Part shown: positions 9,043-51,535 of the stretch, piece by piece | How positions within the stretch are numbered: position 1 is the stretch's first letter | How the letters are laid out: every line of letters starts with the position of its first letter | From: an uncultured Methanomassiliicoccus sp. | GTDB lineage: Archaea > Thermoplasmatota > Thermoplasmata > Methanomassiliicoccales > UBA472 | Length of the DNA stretch: 64,000 nt | NCBI GenBank assembly: GCA_964585915.1 | Contig: CAZPFU010000005.1 | Span: 7,452-71,451, forward strand | Reading direction: 5' to 3' | Made by a program: the position numbers and the translations under genes | The notes under the pieces: generated by a model | Told to the model about the DNA's origin: nothing | The model's database searches: none | The model's input: only the letters and a program-made list of their open reading frames with translations

Positions 9043-9120
9043 GGGGCCGTGGGGTAGCTTGGTCCATCCTTCGGGCTTTGGGAGCCTGAGACTCCGATTC
9101 AAATTCGGACGGCCTCACCA
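9043..9120 (+). tRNA. tRNA-Pro (TGG), CCA encoded
   Basis: Acceptor GGGGCCG/CGGCCTC, anticodon arm CGGGC-TT-TGG-GA-GCCTG, T arm TCCGA-TTCAAAT-TCGGA, ends ACCA. Confidence 0.95.
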
Positions 9121-18990: not shown

Positions 18991-19102
18991 CCCGACTTAG
19001 CTCAGTCTGGCTAGAGCGGCTGACTGTAGTGGGATCCCGGCTTGCCGGTCCTCAGCCGCCGATATCAGCAGGTGCCCGGTTCAAATCCGGGAGTCGGGAC
19101 CA
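18991..19102 (+). tRNA. tRNA-Tyr (GTA) with a 34-nt intron at 37/38 (19030-19063), CCA encoded
   Basis: Acceptor CCCGACT/AGTCGGG, anticodon arm GCTGA-CT-GTA-G[intron]A-TCAGC, T arm CCCGG-TTCAAAT-CCGGG. Confidence 0.93.
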
Positions 19103-32066: not shown

Positions 32067-33461
32067 TTACTTACTGTTCTCGCTGAACTTCGACCACATC
32101 TCGTGCCGGTACAGCGTCTTCCCTTCCATGGAGTTGATGTTGAACAGGCAGAAGGGGATCAGCTTGCCATCCGGCGTGACGGTATGGATGCAGCAGTTGC
32201 GGAAGCGCTCGGTCTCCGAGGTCCAGGCGTCCTGGAAGGCCATGGTGGAGACGGTCAGATAATGCGTCTTCGCCCTGTCCACGAAATCGCCCCACTCGTT
32301 GGTGTTGCCGTCATCCTCCTCGACGATGAGCGAGTCCTCGATGAAGCGCCAGAGGTCGGATATCTCCTTGCGGGTCTTGTCCGCCACGTTCGCGGTCTCC
32401 TTGGGCGGACCGAAGGCCCTGCTCGTTAACGGGAACAGAGAGCCGTCCTCCATGACCACCGACATGGACTTGGCGTCGCAGTGGACGTTCGAGCATGATG
32501 TCGGAATGAAGTTGTCCACCCGGAGCTCGCCGTTGGTCTGGTCCTCGATGGCCTTCAGCAGGTCGGGGATGGTCACCCGGTCGCTGTCCTTGGGGGATAT
32601 CGGAAACCTGCCGAAGTAGGCGATGGGCTGGAAATGCACCCCTTTGATGGTAGGCACCTTGGACTTGGCGAAGTTGATGACCTCGCCCACCCGGTCCAGG
32701 TTGATGTTCGGGGAAACGACCGTCACCAGTGTTATGCCCATGCCCACCTTCTCACAGTTCTCGATGCATTTGAGCTTCTGCGCCAGGATGTCGCGTCCAC
32801 AGGTCTGCTTGTAGATGTCTCCGTGAAGCCCGTCGAAGGAGAAGTACAGATCGTCCGCCCCGGCCTCCTTGACCTTCCTGAGGAACTCGATGTCCTCGGC
32901 GAAGCGGATGCCATTGGTGTTGATCTCGATGTAATCGATGCCCATCTCCTTGCCCATGCGGATGATGTCGGGAAGATCGTCCCTGATGGTGGGCTCGCCT
33001 CCGCTGATCTGAACGACAATGGGGTGGTCCACATAGTCCAGCATGGTCTGGTACATTCCCTTGATTACCTCCAGCGAGGGGCTGAACTTGTAGAACTGAT
33101 TGGCGGAGGCGAAGCACACCGGGCACTTCAGATTGCAGCCGTTGGTGATCTCCATGACCACCAGGCAGGTGTGCTGGACGTGGTCCGGACATAGACCGCA
33201 TATCTGCGGGCAGTTGTCCTTCTCCTGCACGGCGAGCTTCAGGGGCCTGGACTGTACGGCCGCGTAGCGGTACATGTCCTGATAGTCATCCTTGCCCCTC
33301 CATGCCAGCACCTTCCATGTTCCGTGCTCAGGGCACTCCTTGATGAGATAGACCTTGTCCTCCTCGACCACCTTGGTGACCGGGATGGTCTTCAAGCATT
33401 TGGGGCACAACCCATTGGTATGACCGATGACCTCGCTCATTTCATTCACCGTGATATCCAA
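32067..33461 (-). CDS. Radical SAM enzyme of the TrsS/Tes (COG1964-type) superfamily
   Basis: CPKC...CPEHG, CPQICGLCPDH, CNLKCPVC (CxxxCxxC), HFQPIAYFGR, MAFQDAW, CCIH...IPFC. Confidence 0.88.
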   Translation of the reverse strand: MDITVNEMSEVIGHTNGLCPKCLKTIPVTKVVEEDKVYLIKECPEHGTWKVLAWRGKDDYQDMYRYAAVQSRPLKLAVQEKDNCPQICGLCPDHVQHTCLVVMEITNGCNLKCPVCFASANQFYKFSPSLEVIKGMYQTMLDYVDHPIVVQISGGEPTIRDDLPDIIRMGKEMGIDYIEINTNGIRFAEDIEFLRKVKEAGADDLYFSFDGLHGDIYKQTCGRDILAQKLKCIENCEKVGMGITLVTVVSPNINLDRVGEVINFAKSKVPTIKGVHFQPIAYFGRFPISPKDSDRVTIPDLLKAIEDQTNGELRVDNFIPTSCSNVHCDAKSMSVVMEDGSLFPLTSRAFGPPKETANVADKTRKEISDLWRFIEDSLIVEEDDGNTNEWGDFVDRAKTHYLTVSTMAFQDAWTSETERFRNCCIHTVTPDGKLIPFCLFNINSMEGKTLYRHEMWSKFSENSK

Positions 33462-44972: not shown

Positions 44973-45710
44973 ATGCCGAGGCCGGCCGTCACGTCCGAGC
45001 GCCAATTGAGACGACAGGTCTCCTGGCTGGGACAGTACTGGGAATGGACCATGCGAACCCTGGTCAGGGAACGACCGGGAATGACCGCCCTGGAGGTCGG
45101 CTGCGGTCCCGGGCTGGTGATGGAGCTGTTCTCCCCGATGCTCGAGGTGACCGGGCTGGACATCGACCAGGGGATGGTCCGGCGGGTCCGAGAAAAGGGG
45201 ATGGAAGCGGTGCTTGGGGACGCGCAGGACCTACCCTTCGGAGATGAAAGCTTCGACTTCGTCTACTGCTCCTTCACCATGATGTGGCTACCGGACCAGC
45301 AAAGGGCCATGACGGAGATGGCCAGGGTGGCCCGACAATGCGTGCTGTGTCTGGCTGAACCGGACTACGGCAGGAGATCGTGCTCACCTCCGGAAGTGGC
45401 ACGGTTGGACAAAGCGCTGATCCGATCGCTGCGGGCGGAGGGGGCCGACCCGTACACCGGAAGGAAACTGAAGCGCCTGATGATGAGGGCCGGCCTGGAA
45501 GTGGACTTTGGGGCGCACGGCGGAAAATGGACCGGCGCTCAGCTCAAGGAAGAGGCGGAGGCGGAATGGAATGCGCTGTCCCAGTCCGTGGAGAGGTTCG
45601 TGGACCCTGAGACCCTGGAAAGGGCGAGGTTCGCCTGGGACGAGGCCCTGGCAGATGATACCCTGGTGCTCATCAACCCCATGTTCCACGCGATTGGCTG
45701 GAAGCGCTGA
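44973..45710 (+). CDS. Class I SAM-dependent methyltransferase
   Basis: LEVGCGPG, GLDID, GDAQDLPF..ESFD. Confidence 0.88.
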   Translation: MPRPAVTSERQLRRQVSWLGQYWEWTMRTLVRERPGMTALEVGCGPGLVMELFSPMLEVTGLDIDQGMVRRVREKGMEAVLGDAQDLPFGDESFDFVYCSFTMMWLPDQQRAMTEMARVARQCVLCLAEPDYGRRSCSPPEVARLDKALIRSLRAEGADPYTGRKLKRLMMRAGLEVDFGAHGGKWTGAQLKEEAEAEWNALSQSVERFVDPETLERARFAWDEALADDTLVLINPMFHAIGWKR

Positions 45711-47060
45711 TCACATGTTCGAGTGCCTGTCGAGGCATATGTAATCGCCGTGCTCTCTGGACAGCGGGCAGCCGCCCCCGCAGACCTCCTTCATGCCGCA
45801 GTCGACGCAATCCCCGTCCAGGTACTCCCGGTTGCGGATGCGCTTGCAGAGGTCGTGTTCCCATATGGCCTTCCAGTCATCGGTCAGGATGTTTCCTAAC
45901 GGTTCGTAATAGCTCTGGCACGGGAGGACCGTCCCGTCCGGTTCGATGGCCATGTTCAGGGCGCAGGCGGTGCACTGTTTGATCCCCAGCCCGTGGTTGA
46001 TGGGATTGAGCTCGTGGTAAGGCGTAGGGGTGTACCAGATTAGTTTGACGTTCTTCTCGACGGCTATGGCCTTCAGCGAATCCAACGCCTTGGCCAGCTC
46101 TTCATAGGAGATGCCTTCGGCGTTGACCCCCTTCCCGGACCGTATCAGCCCGTTGAAGGCGATGTTCTTTACTCCCAAGGAAATAAGGAAGCGCATGGTC
46201 CCCTCCACCCCGTTCAGATTGGAGCGCATGATGGTGGTGTTCGTCGAAACGTAAAGGTCCTCCGCCAGCGCGACCTTGAGCCCTTCGACCGTCTCCTTCC
46301 ATGCGCCCTCACTGCCGACCAGGCGGTCGTGGGCCTCCGCCTCGGACGAAAGCACGGTTATCTGCACATGGTCCAGGCCCCTGACGACCAGGTCGTGAAG
46401 GTATCCCGGCTTGGCGAGATTGCGGCCGTTGCTCACCAGCCCGGTCACCTGCCCGTACTTCTCGGACCAGGAGACCAGATCCGGCAAGGCCTGGCATTCC
46501 GTCGGTTCGCCGCCGGTGAAGACGATGTGCGGTATGCCGAGCTGCCACGTTTTCGTTATCACCTGCTTCCATTGTTCAGCAGTAAGTTCCTTCAGCTCGC
46601 GCGGCTCGTTATAGCAGTGTCCGCAGCGGTTCTGGCAACGATATGTGAGCGCCAGGTCCATGCGGTACGGCGCCGGGAAGTCGTCCTTGCCTATCGACGG
46701 CTTGTCGGGACCGATCATGCCCAGTACCTGGTTGTCCCCTTTCAGGAACTCGACGAGCTGCCCCTTGACCAGGACATGACGCTCTATGGCCTTGTCCTTC
46801 TTCAAATGCTTGTAGCGGCGGCGCAGGTACTTGGCGACCTGCTTATCGTCGCGGTCCTCCAGGACGCAGCGGACGTGGTCCAGGGCGGTGCCGTTCAGGA
46901 AGATTATGCTTGAGGCGTCAACGAGAAGCGCGCCCTTGCTCTCCGAGTCGATGCGCAGATGGAAGCGGTGGCCCTTCAGGTCGCCGAGGCCATCGTACTT
47001 GTGGACGCCGGCGCGGAGCCCTTTTCCGTTAAGCTCCCGCCACCAGTTCCTGAGGGTCAT
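45711..47060 (-). CDS. Radical SAM/SPASM enzyme with a PqqD/RRE-like N-terminal domain
   Basis: CQNRCGHC (CxxxCxxC), FTGGEP, SPASM CTAC...C...CVDC.....CGGGC; ATG overlaps the upstream stop. Confidence 0.9.
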   Translation of the reverse strand: MTLRNWWRELNGKGLRAGVHKYDGLGDLKGHRFHLRIDSESKGALLVDASSIIFLNGTALDHVRCVLEDRDDKQVAKYLRRRYKHLKKDKAIERHVLVKGQLVEFLKGDNQVLGMIGPDKPSIGKDDFPAPYRMDLALTYRCQNRCGHCYNEPRELKELTAEQWKQVITKTWQLGIPHIVFTGGEPTECQALPDLVSWSEKYGQVTGLVSNGRNLAKPGYLHDLVVRGLDHVQITVLSSEAEAHDRLVGSEGAWKETVEGLKVALAEDLYVSTNTTIMRSNLNGVEGTMRFLISLGVKNIAFNGLIRSGKGVNAEGISYEELAKALDSLKAIAVEKNVKLIWYTPTPYHELNPINHGLGIKQCTACALNMAIEPDGTVLPCQSYYEPLGNILTDDWKAIWEHDLCKRIRNREYLDGDCVDCGMKEVCGGGCPLSREHGDYICLDRHSNM

Positions 47061-48691
47061 CGTCCACCCCCGGCGCACGCGCAGGCGCAAGCACAAGCAC
47101 AGGCGCAATGCCCTCCGCTGCGCACCGGTCCAGAACTGGAGACCGGCATCGGATTGGTCACCCTGACCACGTCGTTGGCGATGCCGCGCATGTCGTTCAC
47201 CAGGTTGTTGGCGGCGTTCCGCACGTTGTTCACGTAATCGTTGGCCATCTTGCCCACGTCCGGAATGAAGCCGGAGGTGCCAACCCCGCCGGGGACCGGC
47301 CGGTGTATGAATATCGGCAGGATGAGGATGTCCCTCTGCATGCGCCCGGGATAATCGCGGTCAAGCATCATCCAGTCATTGTTCTTCTGCAGCTGGAACG
47401 CGGCATCCTCCGGCGTCCCGGCCGTCTTTACCTGCTGCCAGGCCTTGTCGCATATCGATTCGTAATACCTCTGGGTGGCCGATTGCTCAAAGCCCTTCAT
47501 CTTCTCCAGGGTGGCGTTGATGAGGCTCACCAGAGCTTTCTTCAGCAGACCGCGGTCCACCGTCCCGTCCGGACCGATGGTGCGAAGATAGTCCGTCTCA
47601 TAGGGGTGTTCGCCGACCTCGGCCAGCTTCTGCAGGCGCATCGGCGCTTGTTCCGACAGCACCCGTACCTTGCCCTTCCTGATCAGGCCGAAGAGGACCA
47701 TGGTGGAGACCATCTCCAGTGGTCTCTCCAGAACGACGGCCGCCTCCACCACGGTCAGGTCGCGCCGCGGACCGGCGCCCACCACGTTCATCACCGGCTC
47801 GTAGTAATCTCCGCGCCGCTTTCTTGCTACGGACACATTGATCACCACGAACAGGGTGGCGAACAAGGCCATGACGATAAGCGGCAACAGCAGCGACACC
47901 AAGGCCCAGATGTCCCCGAAGATGTCCATCTCCGGGTCGGGCAGGAAGTACTGCTCGACGTAAACGGCCGGGAAGCCCACGCCAACGTCGTAGCTGCCGG
48001 CCGCCACGTTGTCAGGATAGACGTTGGAGTCGGTCCACATGGCCACATGCCTTTCCGTGGCGTTGTCCCAATAGAACTGGTCCCAGGGATTGCCTTCGTA
48101 CCAGAGAGCCTGCGTTTCGTCGGTGAAGCCCTCCGGGAATATCAGCCTCTGCACCAGGGTTCCGGTCGGTCCGACCTGGAACTCCGGATCGAACCAGGTG
48201 GGGCGGAAGCTTGCGCCCACGGTGTCGTTGATCATTTCGTTCAGATACACCATGTGCGGGTTGTTCACGTGGAAGTATAGCTCGAAGGAACCGGCGCTCT
48301 CGATGGCGTTCTGAAGCGTATTGCCGAACTCCACCGCCATCCCCACATCGATGTACGGTGATTCGTGTACCTGCGAGGGAGCGTACTGGGTGCTGCCGAC
48401 GAAGATGGTGGCTTCCGCCGAATTCTCATCGTAATGGGAGTTGGGAAGCCCGATGTCCACCCCATCCAGGAAGCCGACGTTGGTGAACAGGAAGTAATAA
48501 TCGATGTCCACGCTGCCATCCCTCAGGATCGTGACGTTGACCTCTTGCCGCTCCACGGAGAAGGAGTAGTCGGCCGCCCTTGCTTCGCCGAAGGGGGATT
48601 GGTTCAGCGTCCCGAGCCCGCTGAGAAGCAGAGATGATATCAGCAGCAACGATAGGACGTTGACCGTGACATAACGCGAAAGTCGTTCCAT
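47057..48691 (-). CDS. Single-pass membrane protein (DUF2207-like ectodomain) with a C-terminal H(CA)6GGGR tail
   Basis: Signal peptide, beta-rich ectodomain (RQEVNVTILRDGSVDIDY), TM helix followed by RKRR, ends SGGHCACACACACACAGGGR. Confidence 0.85.
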   Translation of the reverse strand: MERLSRYVTVNVLSLLLISSLLLSGLGTLNQSPFGEARAADYSFSVERQEVNVTILRDGSVDIDYYFLFTNVGFLDGVDIGLPNSHYDENSAEATIFVGSTQYAPSQVHESPYIDVGMAVEFGNTLQNAIESAGSFELYFHVNNPHMVYLNEMINDTVGASFRPTWFDPEFQVGPTGTLVQRLIFPEGFTDETQALWYEGNPWDQFYWDNATERHVAMWTDSNVYPDNVAAGSYDVGVGFPAVYVEQYFLPDPEMDIFGDIWALVSLLLPLIVMALFATLFVVINVSVARKRRGDYYEPVMNVVGAGPRRDLTVVEAAVVLERPLEMVSTMVLFGLIRKGKVRVLSEQAPMRLQKLAEVGEHPYETDYLRTIGPDGTVDRGLLKKALVSLINATLEKMKGFEQSATQRYYESICDKAWQQVKTAGTPEDAAFQLQKNNDWMMLDRDYPGRMQRDILILPIFIHRPVPGGVGTSGFIPDVGKMANDYVNNVRNAANNLVNDMRGIANDVVRVTNPMPVSSSGPVRSGGHCACACACACACAGGGR

Positions 48692-48696
48692 CGCGC

Positions 48697-49053
48697 TCAC
48701 CACTTGGGCGATTCCTCCAGGGAGGAGATGGTGCCGCAGTACGGACAGGTCATGATGACCCCGCCCTGCACGACCTTGAGGTTCTCGTCCGTGAGCGGCG
48801 CTCCGCAGCTCTTGCAGTTCAGCTCCTTCTTCTCCATCTGCCCGGAACCGCTCATCGTCACATTGAAGTTCTGGGTCACCAGCGTGGGCTTGGACGCCTC
48901 GACCCTTTTACTGCGGTAGACGAAGACCATGAGCACGATGGCCATCAGCACCAGCGCCCCGCCGGTTATGAGGTTCTGCGTACCAGCTGCGATAAGGAAT
49001 ATCACTCCCAGAAGCATCAGGAATATGGCCACGAAGAGGATGACGCTCTCCAT
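48697..49053 (-). CDS. Two-TM membrane protein with a C-terminal zinc ribbon
   Basis: Two hydrophobic helices then CKSCGAPL...CPYCG; its stop overlaps the GGTGAG RBS of the next gene. Confidence 0.8.
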   Translation of the reverse strand: MESVILFVAIFLMLLGVIFLIAAGTQNLITGGALVLMAIVLMVFVYRSKRVEASKPTLVTQNFNVTMSGSGQMEKKELNCKSCGAPLTDENLKVVQGGVIMTCPYCGTISSLEESPKW

Positions 49054-49204
49054 AACGCGGTTCAATAAGTTTCCCCCGGCATCGCATGATGTTCCAGGAT
49101 TTTAAAGGTGATTGAGGATGCGGCCCAAATGATAGGAAGCCGGAAAAGACCAAGGCCTGGGCTGAAGAGAGGGGGGAGCGTTTCACACGCACATCCTTAC
49201 CATC

Positions 49205-51535
49205 TCATTTCCTTAACTTGAACCACCAGACACCTAAGGCGGCTGCCGCCACGATGACCACCACTACGATCGCAATCATCAACGTCTGACCATCGGACCC
49301 GTCATTTTCAGAGGGGACGGTGACGTTCAGAACATTGGACAGAGGTGAGTTGCCAAGGTCGTTCACCGCCTTCACGGCAAAGAAGTACTTGACACCGGGG
49401 TCCAGCCCGGTGACGGTGGCCGATGTACTGGTGTTCGACAACGTTCCTCCGAACTGGGCGTCCGGGGAAACGGTGCCGTAGAACACCGTGTAGCCGGTGA
49501 TCGACAGGTTGCCGTCGTTCTCCGGGCTGGTCCAGGTCAGGGTAACCACGGTACCCTCGGCCGTGGCTGAGACCAGCAGCGGGGAGGATGGTACCGAGAG
49601 CGCCATCGAGGCGATCCCGTTCCAGGTGGGCGAGGTGAAGTTGGCTGCGCCCAGATAGTATTGCACGACCAGCGATCCGTTCAGCATGTGCTTCCAGTTG
49701 ATGTCGGTATCCGGGGCGTCCCCATTGAAGCGCAGGACCTCCAGAGCGGGGAGATCGCAGAAAGAGCGGTACCCGAGATAGGCGACACTCCCAGGAACAA
49801 TAATGTGAGTGAGGTTGCAGGCATTGATGGCCCAATCGCCTATGGTCACCACTCCATCCGGAATATCGTATGCGCCTGTCCAACCAGAGGGGACCTTGAT
49901 CAATATGGTCCTGTTGGCGTTGAACAGCGCCCCGTCCATGCTGGAGTAGTTGACGCCTCCCTCATCGACATTGATCTTCAGCAAGGCGTAGCATTCGTCG
50001 AAGGCCCATTCCCCGATGTAAGTCACACTGCCAGGGATGTTGATCTCGGTGAGCGTTGGACACTCCGAGAAAGCGCCCTCCCCGATGTAGGTCACCCCTT
50101 CAGGGATGGTCACCGAGGTCAAGCTCTGGGCATAGGCCATGCTCCAGTCGCGCAGGGAGGTCACGGTGTCGGGGAAGACGTACGCACCTGCCTTTCCAGA
50201 TGGGTACTGAAGAAGCTCCGTGACATCCTTGTCGAAAAGCACGCCATCCAGGCTGGAATAGATGGGATTGCCCGGATCGACCTCGATCTCGGTGAGGTTC
50301 CTGTCATACGATAGCGCCCATATCGGTATGTCCGTCACGTTCTTCCCTATCCCGACCCGGCTCAGTTCGGGGCAGGAGCTGAAAGCGGCGTCTCCCAGGG
50401 CGGTGACGCTGTCCGGCACATTGTAACTTCCTCCCAGCCCGCAGGGGTACTTGATGAGCCTGGTGAGGTCCTCGTTGAACAGGACCCCTCCGGCGCTCTC
50501 GTATACGGTGTTCGACGGATCGACGTTAATGGACGTCATGGACCAGCAGCCGCTGAAGGTCCGGTCCGCCATGGAGGCGACGCTGCCCGGAATGTCCACG
50601 CTGGTCAGGGACGTGCAGGAGGTGAACGCATAGTTCCCTATTGTGCTCAAGCCCTCGTTCAGGGTCAGGGAGCTCAGAGAGGCGCAGCCCGAGAACGCGC
50701 TCGCCCCGATGGTGAGCACGTTCCCGGGTATCTCCAGGGCAGCCAGCGAGCTGCAGAAGTAGAAGGCGTTGACACCTATGGAGGAGGTGCCGGTCCCTAT
50801 GGTGAGCGAGGACAGGGAGTCGCACACGATGAAGGCGCTGTTCCCTATGGTGTTGACGCTGTCCGGTATGGTTATTGATTCCAGGGCTCGGCAGTAGGCG
50901 AAGGTCCAGTCGGATATGGCGCTGATCCCGCTGCCCAAGGTCACGGAGCTTAGCGATGTGCAGGAGTAGAAGGCCTTCTGTTGGATGAAGGTCACGCTGT
51001 CCGGGATGGTTATTGAGGTTATCTTGCTGCAATAGACGAAGGCCTCGTAACCGATGCTGTCCGTGGTCCCCGGCACATCGTACCCTCCTTCCAATCCCGG
51101 CGGATACATCACCAGGGCACCGAGGTTTTTACTGAAAAGCACCCCGTCCAAGCTGGCGAATTGCGTGCTGTTGCTGTCGACATATATGGCGGTCAGGTTC
51201 CAGCACTCCTGGAAGGCCATGGAGCTGACCCCTCCCAAACTGGATGGAAGGGTAACTGATGTCACGCTCTCCATCTGATAGAACGCATGCCAGTCTATCA
51301 TGGTCACCGGTCTTCCATCTATCAGCTCGGGGATGACCACGTCTCCCCCCGGACCTGTGTAACTGGTGATCTTGACCTCGGTGTCGCCGTTTATGAGCTC
51401 GTACTCATAGTCACCGCTCGCGACCGCCGTGGCGGGGCCGGTGAACACGATCGATACGAATAGCGACACCAGCATTATCAATGATAAAAAGAGAGCGCTT
51501 AACGAGATCAACCTGGATGATCCAATCTCTTCCAC
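49205..51535 (-). CDS. BspA-like leucine-rich-repeat surface protein with FN3 domain and C-terminal TM anchor
   Basis: Repeated L.S.TIP.SV..IG..AF..C units, four DGVLF-type inserts, FN3 (LTWTSP...GYTVFYG...KYFFAVKAVN), TM plus basic tail. Confidence 0.9.
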   Translation of the reverse strand: MEEIGSSRLISLSALFLSLIMLVSLFVSIVFTGPATAVASGDYEYELINGDTEVKITSYTGPGGDVVIPELIDGRPVTMIDWHAFYQMESVTSVTLPSSLGGVSSMAFQECWNLTAIYVDSNSTQFASLDGVLFSKNLGALVMYPPGLEGGYDVPGTTDSIGYEAFVYCSKITSITIPDSVTFIQQKAFYSCTSLSSVTLGSGISAISDWTFAYCRALESITIPDSVNTIGNSAFIVCDSLSSLTIGTGTSSIGVNAFYFCSSLAALEIPGNVLTIGASAFSGCASLSSLTLNEGLSTIGNYAFTSCTSLTSVDIPGSVASMADRTFSGCWSMTSINVDPSNTVYESAGGVLFNEDLTRLIKYPCGLGGSYNVPDSVTALGDAAFSSCPELSRVGIGKNVTDIPIWALSYDRNLTEIEVDPGNPIYSSLDGVLFDKDVTELLQYPSGKAGAYVFPDTVTSLRDWSMAYAQSLTSVTIPEGVTYIGEGAFSECPTLTEINIPGSVTYIGEWAFDECYALLKINVDEGGVNYSSMDGALFNANRTILIKVPSGWTGAYDIPDGVVTIGDWAINACNLTHIIVPGSVAYLGYRSFCDLPALEVLRFNGDAPDTDINWKHMLNGSLVVQYYLGAANFTSPTWNGIASMALSVPSSPLLVSATAEGTVVTLTWTSPENDGNLSITGYTVFYGTVSPDAQFGGTLSNTSTSATVTGLDPGVKYFFAVKAVNDLGNSPLSNVLNVTVPSENDGSDGQTLMIAIVVVVIVAAAALGVWWFKLRK

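What the first reader, a model, noticed from the sequence alone, without database searches (positions are those of the whole stretch)
47057..47110. Alternating Cys-Ala hexarepeat maintained at the protein level
Seen: codons CAT TGC GCC TGT GCT TGT GCT TGC GCC TGC GCG TGC GCC GGG GGT GGA CGA TGA. Cys and Ala codons vary synonymously, so this is not DNA slippage. Topology (signal peptide, ectodomain, TM helix, RKRR) puts the tail in the cytoplasm. DUF2207-like proteins usually end in a Gly-rich tail. Inference: the six thiols are either a crosslinking substrate or a metal/Fe-S binding or polymerisation element, with all Cys side chains on one face of an extended strand.
Basis: partly seen in the sequence, partly recalled or inferred. 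Interest (0 to 1): 0.7.

Follow-up and report, generated by a model that had tools for sequence, protein, structure and literature searches.

The report
Cys-Ala tail with dedicated radical-SAM enzyme
A membrane protein ends in a near-invariant run of alternating cysteines and alanines that hangs in the cytoplasm beside a co-encoded radical-SAM peptide-modifying enzyme, which suggests an undescribed protein modification that is widespread in anaerobic bacteria and archaea, including Asgard archaea.

Summary
On the minus strand, ORF 47057..48703 (548 aa) ends H-(Cys-Ala)6-Gly-Gly-Gly-Arg-stop. It is not a local oddity. Every full-length homologue ends in (CA)n…GGGR or a close variant, and tail columns are 98% conserved against 30-66% for the rest of the protein. 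A DNA scan for the tail alone found it in over 120 species genomes across about 12 phyla, and wherever the carrier could be read it was this family.

The stop codon overlaps the start (ATGA) of a radical SAM/SPASM enzyme with an N-terminal PqqD-like peptide-recognition domain. Its closest solved relatives are the RiPP maturases SkfB, SuiB, CteB and PqqE. That gene lies directly downstream of the tail in 74 of 97 testable loci. A small membrane Zn-ribbon protein and a SAM methyltransferase complete the cassette, and bacteria add a cysteine-less pseudo-radical-SAM paralogue.

Topology (positive-inside in 44/44 members) and the AF2 model (disordered tail on a Gly/Ser tether) put the tail in the cytoplasm, within the enzyme's reach.

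Best reading: the tail is a substrate built into the protein for this maturase, most likely cross-linked through its thiols. The chemistry is untested. No description was found in NCBIfam, Pfam or the literature library.

The parts
47057..47110 (-). The reported feature: H532-(Cys-Ala)6-Gly-Gly-Gly-Arg548-stop. (CA)6 = nt 47072-47107, GGGR = 47060-47071, TGA = 47057-47059.
   Evidence: Invariant or near-invariant columns C535-R548 in a 44-member alignment. Tail conservation 0.98. Disordered in AF2.
47108..47149 (-). Gly/Ser-rich flexible linker (residues 519-532, MPVSSSGPVRSGGH) between the conserved T-N-P-x-P motif (516-520) and the tail.
   Evidence: Across the family the linker is 10-34 aa (median 18), 37% Gly and 24% Ser. 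pLDDT <50 from residue 523.
47057..48703 (-). Tail-bearing type-I membrane protein, 548 aa: signal/anchor 12-30, beta-sandwich ectodomain 48-245, TM helix about 261-299 followed by RKRR, cytoplasmic winged-helix (318-359) plus helical domain (367-516), linker, tail.
   Evidence: 117 homologues. 1449 clusters at 50% identity. No Pfam or NCBIfam hit. Weak DUF2207 signal in 7/44 members. Ribophorin I/Ost1 are the best whole-length structural matches.
45711..47060 (-). Radical SAM/SPASM maturase, 449 aa. Its ATG (47058-47060) overlaps the tail gene's TGA (ATGA). Longer ORF calls starting at TTG 47108 read through the CA repeat in another frame (MRLCLCLRLRV...) and are artefacts.
   Evidence: Pfam Radical_SAM 3.8e-15 and SPASM 6.3e-9. 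All NCBIfam equivalogs far below cutoff. Closest PDB sequences PqqE, SkfB, SuiB. Full-length Foldseek matches SkfB, SuiB, CteB.
46743..47009 (-). N-terminal RRE-like (PqqD-like) domain of the maturase, residues about 18-106.
   Evidence: AF2 topology: strands 32-37, 43-47, 51-55, then helices 59-67, 72-82, 88-106. PqqD (PF05402) is hit by 9/10 divergent orthologues, 5 above the gathering score, but not by the window's own copy. Conserved motif RxHLRxxxxGxGxLxxxAxxxxxLNxTA.
46614..46637 (-). CX3CX2C radical-SAM cluster motif (C142, C146, C149: CQNRCGHC).
   Evidence: Conserved 82/82.
45735..45974 (-). SPASM auxiliary-cluster region: C363/C366...G...C381, C418-x2-C421-x5-C427-x3-C431, C442.
   Evidence: C363 and C381 82/82; C418, C421, C427 81/82; C431 80/82. 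A terminal Cys is present in only 35/82 orthologues, including the window.
48697..49065 (-). Small membrane protein, 122 aa: two N-terminal hydrophobic helices, then a cytoplasmic CxxC...CxxC zinc ribbon. Its stop overlaps the tail gene's start by 7 nt.
   Evidence: Homologue directly upstream of the tail gene in L001-L005, L126/L127 and most 8-kb blocks.
44973..45710 (+). Class-I SAM-dependent methyltransferase, 245 aa, convergent with and abutting the maturase gene.
   Evidence: Methyltransf_11 1.2e-21. Best NCBIfam hit is the DVU_1556 family, below cutoff. Homologue present in 59/123 blocks and in the same position in archaeal loci L001, L013, L022, L065, L126, L127.

Best explanation
The (Cys-Ala)n-GGGR tail is a substrate built into the C-terminus of a single-pass membrane protein. 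It is modified in the cytoplasm by the radical SAM/SPASM maturase encoded immediately downstream. SHOWN: the tail is the most conserved part of the family and, wherever the carrier could be read, was found only on this family. It is cytoplasmic, disordered, and held on a 10-34-residue Gly/Ser tether. The downstream enzyme has a radical-SAM cluster motif, a SPASM auxiliary-cluster domain and an N-terminal PqqD-like peptide-recognition domain. The two genes are adjacent across about 12 phyla and overlap (ATGA) here. A methyltransferase and a small Zn-ribbon membrane protein travel with them, and bacteria add a Cys-less paralogue of the maturase. INFERRED: the recognition domain docks on the tail protein, possibly at the conserved segment ending in T-N-P-x-P before the tether. 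The tail threads into the active site, a Cys thiolate engages an auxiliary Fe-S cluster, and 5'-deoxyadenosyl radical abstracts a hydrogen from a neighbouring residue (Ala or Gly). The sulfur then forms an intramolecular thioether, as in sactipeptide and ranthipeptide synthases, and this repeats along the tail. The methyltransferase then caps what remains (free thiols or the C-terminal carboxylate); in bacteria the Cys-less paralogue, which keeps the recognition domain, may recruit it. My confidence is about 0.6 that the tail is the maturase's substrate, and about 0.35-0.4 that the chemistry is thioether cross-linking. What the matured tail does for the cell is unknown. The architecture (ectodomain, TM helix, cytoplasmic winged-helix/helical domain, tail) suggests a signalling or scaffold protein whose cytoplasmic end is made rigid, redox-active or metal-binding.
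For: Tail conservation. Tail restricted to this family: 123/123 pattern matches end at a true stop. 96/97 loci with enough upstream sequence carry a homologue of the window protein, and the exceptions resolve to a frameshift, a remnant or divergent members. Linkage: the maturase is directly downstream in 74/97 loci with at least 1.6 kb of downstream sequence and elsewhere in the 8-kb block in 5 more. It is adjacent in all 5 loci L001-L005 and in the three chromosome-scale records L044, L065 and L096. The reverse test from two maturase orthologues recovers the tail protein both times. The ATGA overlap is shown. Enzyme class; only RRE-bearing RiPP maturases (SkfB, SuiB, CteB) align over the full length. 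Accessibility: positive-inside topology in 44/44 members; tail and linker disordered. Accessory genes acting on the same target: the Cys-less paralogue keeps the recognition domain and most often sits beside the methyltransferase. An RNA-library contig spans the gene junction.
Against: There is no biochemical or mass-spectrometric evidence, so the substrate assignment rests on gene linkage and enzyme class. 18 of 97 testable loci show no maturase within the 8-kb block; some are second copies (L034 and L086 come from one MAG), others are unresolved. The window's own N-terminal domain does not reach PqqD by HMM; its RRE assignment rests on orthology and an AF2 model of moderate confidence (pLDDT 75.5). 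Known RRE-type radical-SAM maturases act on short free peptides, not on 550-aa membrane proteins. No enzyme-tail complex could be modelled. The co-conserved 122-aa Zn-ribbon protein is an alternative Cys-containing substrate. Most bacterial orthologues lack the terminal SPASM Cys, so the cluster complement is uncertain.
Confidence: 0.6

Rival explanations
1. Same substrate, different chemistry. The maturase acts on the tail but does not make thioethers. It might epimerise Ala or Cys (as YydG/EpeE do), oxidise Cys to formylglycine or a dehydro residue (as anSME does), or make C-C or other cross-links (as SuiB and PqqE do). The methyltransferase might S-methylate the thiols.
For: The closest relatives by sequence and fold include non-thioether enzymes: PqqE, SuiB, anSME and EpeE. 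No NCBIfam equivalog is reached, so the chemistry cannot be transferred by homology. A methyltransferase is part of the cassette.
Against: The invariant feature is the cysteines. Among characterised SPASM maturases, Cys-rich targets are typically thioether substrates (established knowledge of SkfB, CteB, AlbA, PapB and QhpD; not tested here). The anSME motif C-x-P/A-x-R is absent from the tail (read directly from the sequence).
Confidence: 0.22
2. The tail is a metal- or Fe-S-binding element (a run of metallothionein-like C-x-C motifs) that works unmodified. The neighbouring radical-SAM enzyme acts on something else, or merely exchanges clusters with it.
For: Repeated C-x-C is the classic metal-thiolate motif (established knowledge). 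The tail is flexible and cytoplasmic. The carriers are anaerobes rich in Fe-S proteins.
Against: In metal-binding C-x-C motifs the x position is free, but here it is Ala in nearly every case (Val or Ser in one clade), and the GGGR end is also fixed. That points to recognition by an enzyme. This reading gives no role to an RRE-bearing maturase, a Cys-less paralogue that keeps the RRE, or a methyltransferase linked across about 12 phyla.
Confidence: 0.12
3. The real substrate of the maturase is the co-conserved 122-aa Zn-ribbon membrane protein, or an unannotated small peptide, and the Cys-Ala tail has a separate role.
For: The small protein is encoded directly upstream in most loci and carries four Cys. 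RiPP precursors are usually small proteins.
Against: It is much less conserved than the tail: 23-57% identity in all but the closest relative (L013, 95%), with no family-wide invariant motif apart from the CxxC pairs. In the window the translational coupling is between the tail gene and the maturase. Where gene order changes, the maturase stays with the cassette, but the tail is the only near-invariant peptide in it.
Confidence: 0.08
4. The tail is the precursor of a released small molecule or peptide (a cofactor or a RiPP, as PQQ comes from PqqA and mycofactocin from MftA), and the membrane protein serves as a disposable scaffold.
For: The enzyme resembles PqqE and MftC-type maturases that build cofactors from peptide C-termini. 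The tail lies at the extreme C-terminus behind a flexible linker.
Against: No protease or exporter is conserved in the cassette. Spending a 550-aa two-domain membrane protein per product molecule is implausible. The rest of the protein is itself conserved (wHTH region 0.66), which suggests the protein is the functional unit.
Confidence: 0.07
5. The repeat is a low-complexity or slippage artefact with no specific function.
For: The repeat number varies between 4 and 6 among close relatives.
Against: The tail is near-invariant down to 27% overall identity. It is present across about 12 phyla, uses synonymous codons, and always ends at a stop.
Confidence: 0.01

Closest known systems
Sactipeptide / ranthipeptide systems (SkfA-SkfB, SCIFF CteA-CteB, subtilosin AlbA, PapA-PapB)
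   Same: A radical SAM enzyme with an N-terminal RRE and auxiliary Fe-S clusters is encoded next to a Cys-rich target. SkfB, SuiB and CteB are the only solved structures that align over the whole maturase model, and SkfB and PqqE are the closest by sequence. PapA-type substrates also carry a short Cys motif repeated several times (from knowledge).
   Different: The target here is the last 12-19 residues of a 550-aa membrane protein, not a 40-60-aa leader-core peptide. No protease or exporter is present. The motif is Cys-Ala alternation with a GGGR end. The cassette adds a methyltransferase, a Zn-ribbon membrane protein and, in bacteria, a Cys-less pseudo-radical-SAM. No NCBIfam model for these systems is reached.
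Protein-level SPASM maturases: anSME (sulfatase Cys/Ser to formylglycine) and QhpD (thioether cross-links in the QhpC subunit)
   Same: A radical SAM/SPASM enzyme modifies Cys in a full-length protein rather than in a natural-product precursor. anSME is a structural match.
   Different: anSME has no RRE and recognises C/S-x-P/A-x-R, which is absent here. QhpC is a small soluble subunit of an enzyme complex, and no amine dehydrogenase genes are present in the cassette.
DUF2207 (PF09972 / PF20990) membrane proteins
   Same: Same overall layout: signal sequence, beta-rich ectodomain, TM helix, cytoplasmic domain and Gly-rich C-terminal region. There is weak HMM similarity in 7/44 (N-terminal domain) and 2/44 (C-terminal domain) members.
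   Different: The window protein matches neither model. It has only one TM helix after the ectodomain. It ends in an invariant Cys-Ala tail and is linked to a radical SAM maturase. The literature search found no paper mentioning DUF2207 together with radical SAM or SPASM.
His-Xaa-Ser (Hxs) and other in-silico-defined radical-SAM/repeat-peptide systems (Haft & Basu type)
   Same: A very short motif repeated in tandem serves as the presumed target of a linked radical SAM maturase, defined by comparative genomics before any chemistry was known (from knowledge). HxsC and HxsC4 are among the sub-threshold NCBIfam hits.
   Different: Different motif, a different carrier (membrane protein against small peptide) and different accessory genes. 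Scores are far below the Hxs cutoffs.
Ribophorin I / Ost1 (eukaryotic oligosaccharyltransferase subunit)
   Same: These are the best whole-length structural matches to the tail protein model (8b6l_O E 4e-11, 6s7o_E, 6ezn_A and others, about 510-520 aligned columns). They share the beta-sandwich ectodomain, single TM helix and cytosolic helical domain.
   Different: TM-scores are only about 0.26 and sequence identity about 13%. No OST genes are in the cassette. Ribophorin has no Cys-Ala tail. The relationship is unverified.

Membership tests
RRE-bearing radical SAM/SPASM peptide maturase (sacti/ranthipeptide-synthase-like) | CX3CX2C motif for the radical-SAM [4Fe-4S] cluster | tested here: met
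   C142-x3-C146-x2-C149. Conserved 82/82. Pfam Radical_SAM 3.8e-15.
RRE-bearing radical SAM/SPASM peptide maturase (sacti/ranthipeptide-synthase-like) | SPASM seven-Cys motif CX9-15GX4C ... CX2CX5CX3C ... C | tested here: met
   Complete in the window (C366...C381; C418/421/427/431; C442). Pfam SPASM 6.3e-9. Six Cys are conserved in at least 80/82 orthologues, but the terminal Cys in only 35/82.
RRE-bearing radical SAM/SPASM peptide maturase (sacti/ranthipeptide-synthase-like) | N-terminal PqqD-like RiPP recognition element | tested here: met
   9/10 divergent orthologues hit PF05402, 5 above the gathering score; the window copy does not. The AF2 model of the window copy shows the beta-beta-beta-alpha-alpha-alpha topology. 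Full-length fold matches are SkfB, SuiB and CteB.
RRE-bearing radical SAM/SPASM peptide maturase (sacti/ranthipeptide-synthase-like) | Short free leader-core precursor peptide as substrate | tested here: not met
   The only near-invariant Cys-rich peptide in the cassette is the C-terminus of a 548-aa membrane protein.
RRE-bearing radical SAM/SPASM peptide maturase (sacti/ranthipeptide-synthase-like) | Cys-to-acceptor-carbon thioether in the product | not testable with these tools
   Needs mass spectrometry or NMR of the modified tail.
Named NCBIfam equivalogs (PqqE, NirJ/AhbD, SkfB, AlbA, MftC, ScmE/F, GeoRSP, HxsC) | Score at or above the curated cutoff | tested here: not met
   The best hit is PqqE at 121 bits against a cutoff of 381, and all others are further below theirs. 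One database orthologue labelled 'PqqE' (P0145) is therefore misnamed.
DUF2207 (PF09972 / PF20990) | HMM match of the protein to the family model | tested here: not met
   The window protein has no hit at E<=1. 7/44 relatives hit PF09972 (best E 1.1e-4) and 2/44 hit PF20990 (best E 0.045), so this is at most a remote relationship.
DUF2207 (PF09972 / PF20990) | Architecture: signal, ectodomain, TM, cytoplasmic domain, Gly-rich tail | tested here: inconclusive
   The layout is similar, but typical DUF2207 tails and TM counts were recalled from memory, not compared here.
anSME / sulfatase maturation | Target motif C/S-x-P/A-x-R, and a maturase without an RRE | tested here: not met
   The tail reads ...CACAGGGR and contains no C-x-P/A-x-R. 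The enzyme has an RRE.
SCIFF (six cysteines in forty-five residues) | A roughly 45-aa peptide matching the SCIFF model, paired with its maturase | tested here: not met
   The tail protein hits no NCBIfam model. The SCIFF maturase model is not among the best 25 maturase hits listed.
Metallothionein-like C-x-C metal-binding peptide | Clustered C-x-C motifs with a variable x position, and metal binding | tested here: inconclusive
   C-x-C spacing is present, but x is nearly always Ala. Metal binding cannot be tested here.

The most novel reading that the evidence does not exclude
This is a new class of radical-SAM-installed modification on a full-length membrane protein, in effect a RiPP core peptide fused to a receptor-like, ribophorin-I-like protein. 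A dedicated maturase, a pseudo-enzyme adaptor and a methyltransferase would convert a (Cys-Ala)n tail into a polycyclic thioether, or some other sulfur-based cofactor-like structure. That structure would serve as the cytoplasmic output or redox element of a widespread system in anaerobes, including Asgard archaea.
Probability: 0.35. Interest if true: 0.85.

Novelty: new variant of a known kind. Interest (0 to 1): 0.72.

Why it matters
Radical SAM/SPASM maturases with recognition domains are known almost entirely from small secreted natural products. If this tail is their substrate, the same machinery is also used to modify a large housekeeping-type membrane protein in place. The system would span over 1,400 sequence clusters in methanogens of digesters and guts, in Anaerolineae, in Planctomycetota and in Asgard archaea. 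That would define a new post-translational modification, give a first functional handle on a DUF2207-like family of unknown function, and supply a short, repetitive, easily synthesised substrate for studying radical thioether (or other) chemistry. The Cys-less paralogue that keeps only the recognition domain would be a natural example of a maturase turned into an adaptor.

Tried and rejected
1. Pfam and NCBIfam scans of the tail protein found nothing. A lenient scan of 44 members gave only weak DUF2207 hits, so I did not file it as DUF2207.
2. NCBIfam naming of the maturase failed: 58 families matched, all far below cutoff.
3. Five literature searches (radical SAM + SPASM + DUF2207; radical SAM + Cys-Ala + repeat; DUF2207 alone; CACACAGGGR; SPASM + membrane protein + C-terminal tail + cysteine-rich + maturase) found no description. 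The DUF2207 papers concern unrelated proteins.
4. I considered the tail as a hydrophobic tail-anchor, because Kyte-Doolittle averages reach 1.6-2.1 over the bipartite bacterial tails. I rejected this: the hydrophobic run is only 10-17 small residues, the archaeal tails fall below threshold, and AF2 leaves it disordered.
5. I looked for free-standing tail peptides or other carrier families among the pattern hits and found none. The short ORFs are a frameshift in a G-run (L092) and a remnant (L106).
6. I looked for a pseudo-radical-SAM in the window. Only the true maturase and an unrelated radical-SAM-like gene at about 32.6-33.4 kb matched.
7. RNA evidence is thin. Contigs from RNA-labelled libraries cover parts of the cassette at low depth, and DNA carry-over cannot be excluded.


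Full report
OBSERVATION. They form the C-terminus of a 548-aa ORF, 47057..48703(-), which ends ...TNPMPVSSSGPVRSGG-H532-(CA)6-GGGR548-TGA. The (TGY-GCN)3 pattern occurs four times (overlapping) in the window and never in 100 dinucleotide-preserving shuffles.

CONSERVATION. A protein search returned 117 homologues, from Methanomassiliicoccales/Thermoplasmata archaea and Anaerolineae bacteria. Every full-length one ends in a Cys-X repeat. The archaeal clade has a Gly-rich linker followed by CACACACACAGGGR. The bacterial clade has CACACACAGCACACAGGGR. A third clade has CVCACASCACACACVSCACACAHGGAR. Proteins lacking the tail are short or partial entries, or look frameshifted. In a 44-member alignment, 10 of the 23 invariant columns lie in the last 10 residues. 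Mean column conservation is 0.98 for the tail, against 0.49 (ectodomain), 0.30 (TM), 0.66 (winged helix) and 0.53 (helical domain). A profile search of 1.84 billion cluster representatives found 1449 related clusters (478 at E<=1e-30). Of 141 new representatives listed, 116 end in the canonical tail, 15 carry variant tails (for example ...CACACASGGAG, without Arg), and 10 are fragments. Repeat number varies from 4 to 6 among close relatives of the window protein. Units are therefore gained and lost, but the alternation and the ending are under strong selection.

A FAMILY-BLIND TEST. All 123 matches end in a true stop; none reads TGG. Cys and Ala codons are used synonymously (TGC 480 / TGT 344; GCC 449 / GCT 152 / GCG 150 / GCA 72). 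Of 97 matches with at least 1.2 kb of upstream sequence, 96 sit on a homologue of the window protein. The remaining odd cases are a 1-nt frameshift in a G-run of a long-read MAG (L092), a remnant tail next to a PIN-like gene (L106), and family members cut by block edges or too divergent for my threshold. The tail therefore belongs to this one family. The hosts are mostly uncultured anaerobes: Chloroflexota (mainly Anaerolineae), Thermoplasmatota, Asgard archaea (Heimdall-, Hod- and Promethearchaeota), Planctomycetota, Acidobacteriota/Aminicenantes, Hydrogenedentes, Sabulitectum/Hyd24-12, Zixibacteria, Coatesbacteria, Clostridia and Polyangiaceae. One cultured species is included, Ornatilinea apprima P3M-1. 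The closest locus to the window is Methanomassiliicoccaceae archaeon UBA472 (83-95% protein identity). The window sequence itself recurs in sludge, digester and wastewater metagenomes.

THE PROTEIN. Hydropathy shows an N-terminal signal or anchor segment and one strong TM helix (about 270-288), followed within 15 residues by 3-8 Lys/Arg in all 44 members. The C-terminal half is therefore cytoplasmic. The AF2 model (mean pLDDT 83.9) has a beta-sandwich ectodomain (48-245), a long TM helix (261-299), a winged-helix-like unit (318-359), and helices to residue 516. From residue 523 to the end, pLDDT is about 38. The segment between the conserved T-N-P-x-P motif and the first Cys is 10-34 residues long (median 18) and 61% Gly+Ser, which makes it a flexible tether. 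The window protein hits no Pfam or NCBIfam model. Only 7 of 44 members weakly hit DUF2207 (best E 1e-4) and 2 of 44 hit DUF2207_C. Unexpectedly, the best whole-length structural matches are ribophorin I/Ost1 of the eukaryotic oligosaccharyltransferase (E down to 4e-11, TM about 0.26), which has the same ectodomain-TM-cytosolic-helices layout.

The TGA of the tail gene overlaps the ATG of the next gene (cgATGAcc). That gene, 45711..47060(-), encodes a 449-aa radical SAM/SPASM protein (Pfam Radical_SAM 3.8e-15, SPASM 6.3e-9). It has CX3CX2C at residues 142-149 and a complete SPASM motif (C366...G...C381; C418-x2-C-x5-C-x3-C431; C442). In 82 linked orthologues the three radical-SAM Cys and six SPASM Cys are conserved in at least 80; the terminal Cys is present in 35. 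No curated NCBIfam equivalog is approached (best is PqqE at 121 bits against a cutoff of 381). Databases call these proteins 'radical SAM protein', and one is mislabelled PqqE. The first 110 or so residues form a PqqD-like RiPP recognition element. Nine of ten divergent orthologues hit PF05402, five above the gathering score, though the window's copy does not. The AF2 model of the window copy shows three strands followed by three helices ahead of the barrel. By sequence the closest solved proteins are PqqE, SkfB and SuiB. By fold, only SkfB, SuiB and CteB align over the full length. All of these modify ribosomal peptides.

LINKAGE. In five loci retrieved through diverse tail-protein homologues, the order is small protein (111-122 aa), tail protein, radical SAM/SPASM. 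Among the pattern-derived loci with at least 1.6 kb downstream, the maturase lies directly downstream in 74 of 97. It is elsewhere in the 8-kb block in 5, with the order small, maturase, (pseudo), tail protein, methyltransferase. It is absent from the block in 18. At least one of those 18 is a second copy in a genome that has a full cassette elsewhere (L034 and L086). All three chromosome-scale records (L044, L065, L096) have the adjacent maturase. Starting instead from two maturase orthologues recovered the 122-aa protein, a 543/557-aa protein ending CACACACACACAGGGR, and a convergent methyltransferase.

ACCESSORY GENES. The 122-aa protein (48697..49065, -) has two hydrophobic helices and a CxxC...CxxC zinc ribbon. 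A class-I methyltransferase (44973..45710, +) abuts the maturase convergently. Homologues occur in 59 of 123 blocks, and directly after the tail gene in 8 of the 23 loci where the maturase is not directly downstream. Its closest solved relatives are generic, and the LahSB lanthipeptide methyltransferase is among them. Bacterial cassettes contain a further gene, a paralogue of the maturase (29% identity, E 5e-48). It keeps the RRE-like N-terminus and the SAPYR(L/M)D motif but has lost CX3CX2C and all the SPASM cysteines. It usually sits next to the methyltransferase. The commonest architectures are small>tail>rSAM (19 loci), small>tail>rSAM>pseudo>MT (16) and tail>rSAM>pseudo>MT (9). Tail type tracks lineage. 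Thermoplasmatota are 8/8 single-run, Bacteria are 103/106 bipartite, and Asgard are mixed.

EXPRESSION. Contigs from RNA-labelled sludge libraries cover parts of the cassette. One, from a metatranscriptomic cDNA run, spans 46892-47187 across the stop/start overlap with one mismatch. This is weak evidence, because depth is low and DNA carry-over cannot be excluded.

MECHANISM. Shown: a near-invariant, cytoplasmic, disordered Cys-Ala tail on a flexible tether, and a translationally coupled, phylogenetically linked radical SAM/SPASM enzyme with a peptide-recognition domain, together with a methyltransferase and a recognition-domain-only paralogue. Inferred: the tail is the enzyme's substrate in cis (confidence about 0.6). 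By analogy with SkfB, CteB, AlbA, PapB and QhpD (established knowledge), the most likely chemistry is radical thioether formation between Cys sulfur and a carbon of a neighbouring Ala or Gly, repeated along the tail (about 0.35-0.4). Methylation would follow, with the pseudo-paralogue possibly acting as an adaptor for the methyltransferase. Alternatives are other chemistry on the same substrate, an unmodified metal-binding tail, the small Zn-ribbon protein as the true substrate, or a released tail-derived product. The near-invariance of Ala at the x position and of the GGGR end fits enzyme recognition better than metal binding alone.

COMPARISON AND NOVELTY. The enzyme meets the sequence and fold criteria for an RRE-bearing radical SAM/SPASM peptide maturase. 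The system fails the criterion of a short free precursor peptide, reaches no curated family, and is not detectably DUF2207. Five literature searches found no description. I rate it a new variant of a known kind: known enzymology applied to a new type of substrate (the tail of a large membrane protein), with new accessory parts and unknown chemistry.

CAVEATS. All functional statements are inferences from comparative genomics and predicted structures. The genome loci are fixed 8-kb blocks, so absences are soft. The family counts come from metagenome-derived proteins. The literature library does not cover subscription-only papers.

Noticed in passing
window 47057-48703 (-); AF2 model mc00a4892cd5a: The best whole-length structural matches of the tail protein are ribophorin I/Ost1 of the eukaryotic oligosaccharyltransferase (8b6l_O E 4e-11, 6s7o_E, 6ezn_A; about 510-520 aligned columns, TM about 0.26). 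Next come the N-terminal beta domains of M1 aminopeptidases. The family also occurs in Asgard archaea. This hints at a DUF2207-like to ribophorin I relationship.
   Followed up: no
L002 11570-12721, L003 11397-12560, and about 30 other bacterial loci: A Cys-less paralogue of the maturase keeps the RRE-like N-terminus but has lost CX3CX2C and all the SPASM cysteines. It usually lies next to the methyltransferase and is absent from the window.
   Followed up: partly
window 47061-47108 (-) and 46959-47237 (+): Other reading frames of the CA repeat produce spurious ORF extensions. One is MRLCLCLRLRV... upstream of the maturase's true ATG; the same artefact appears in L032, and database entries of 464-466 aa are probably mis-called in the same way. 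The other is an antisense ORF with AQAQAQAQAQ.
   Followed up: partly
window 18991-19099 (+) and 9043-9120 (+): Rfam calls a tRNA spanning 109 nt at 18991-19099 that ARAGORN does not report; it may be an intron-containing archaeal tRNA. ARAGORN calls tRNA-Pro at 9043-9120, which Rfam does not list at gathering score.
   Followed up: no
window about 32595-33416 (-): A second radical-SAM-like gene is weakly similar to the pseudo-paralogue query (22-36% identity, E about 1e-6). It is apparently unrelated to the cassette.
   Followed up: no
window 49205-51535 (-): A large surface protein with six BspA-type leucine-rich repeat regions, an fn3 domain and a C-terminal TM anchor lies just upstream of the cassette. 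It is not conserved in other loci.
   Followed up: no
L106 18-50 (-); L092 7140-7172 (-): L106 carries a 39-codon remnant ORF ending ...GGGCACACAGGGR next to a PIN-domain-like gene, downstream of an intact tail gene. L092 has a 1-nt frameshift in the Gly-codon run that separates the body from the tail, probably a long-read homopolymer error.
   Followed up: partly
P0238-P0244 (766-838 aa): Some family members are about 220-290 residues longer and match the profile in two stretches, which suggests a duplicated or extra N-terminal ectodomain. All keep the bipartite Cys-Ala tail.
   Followed up: no
L098, L110 and L034/L086: Some genomes carry two tail-protein genes, either in tandem (L098, L110) or at separate loci (L034 without a maturase and L086 with one, in the same MAG). 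This suggests one maturase can serve several substrates.
   Followed up: partly
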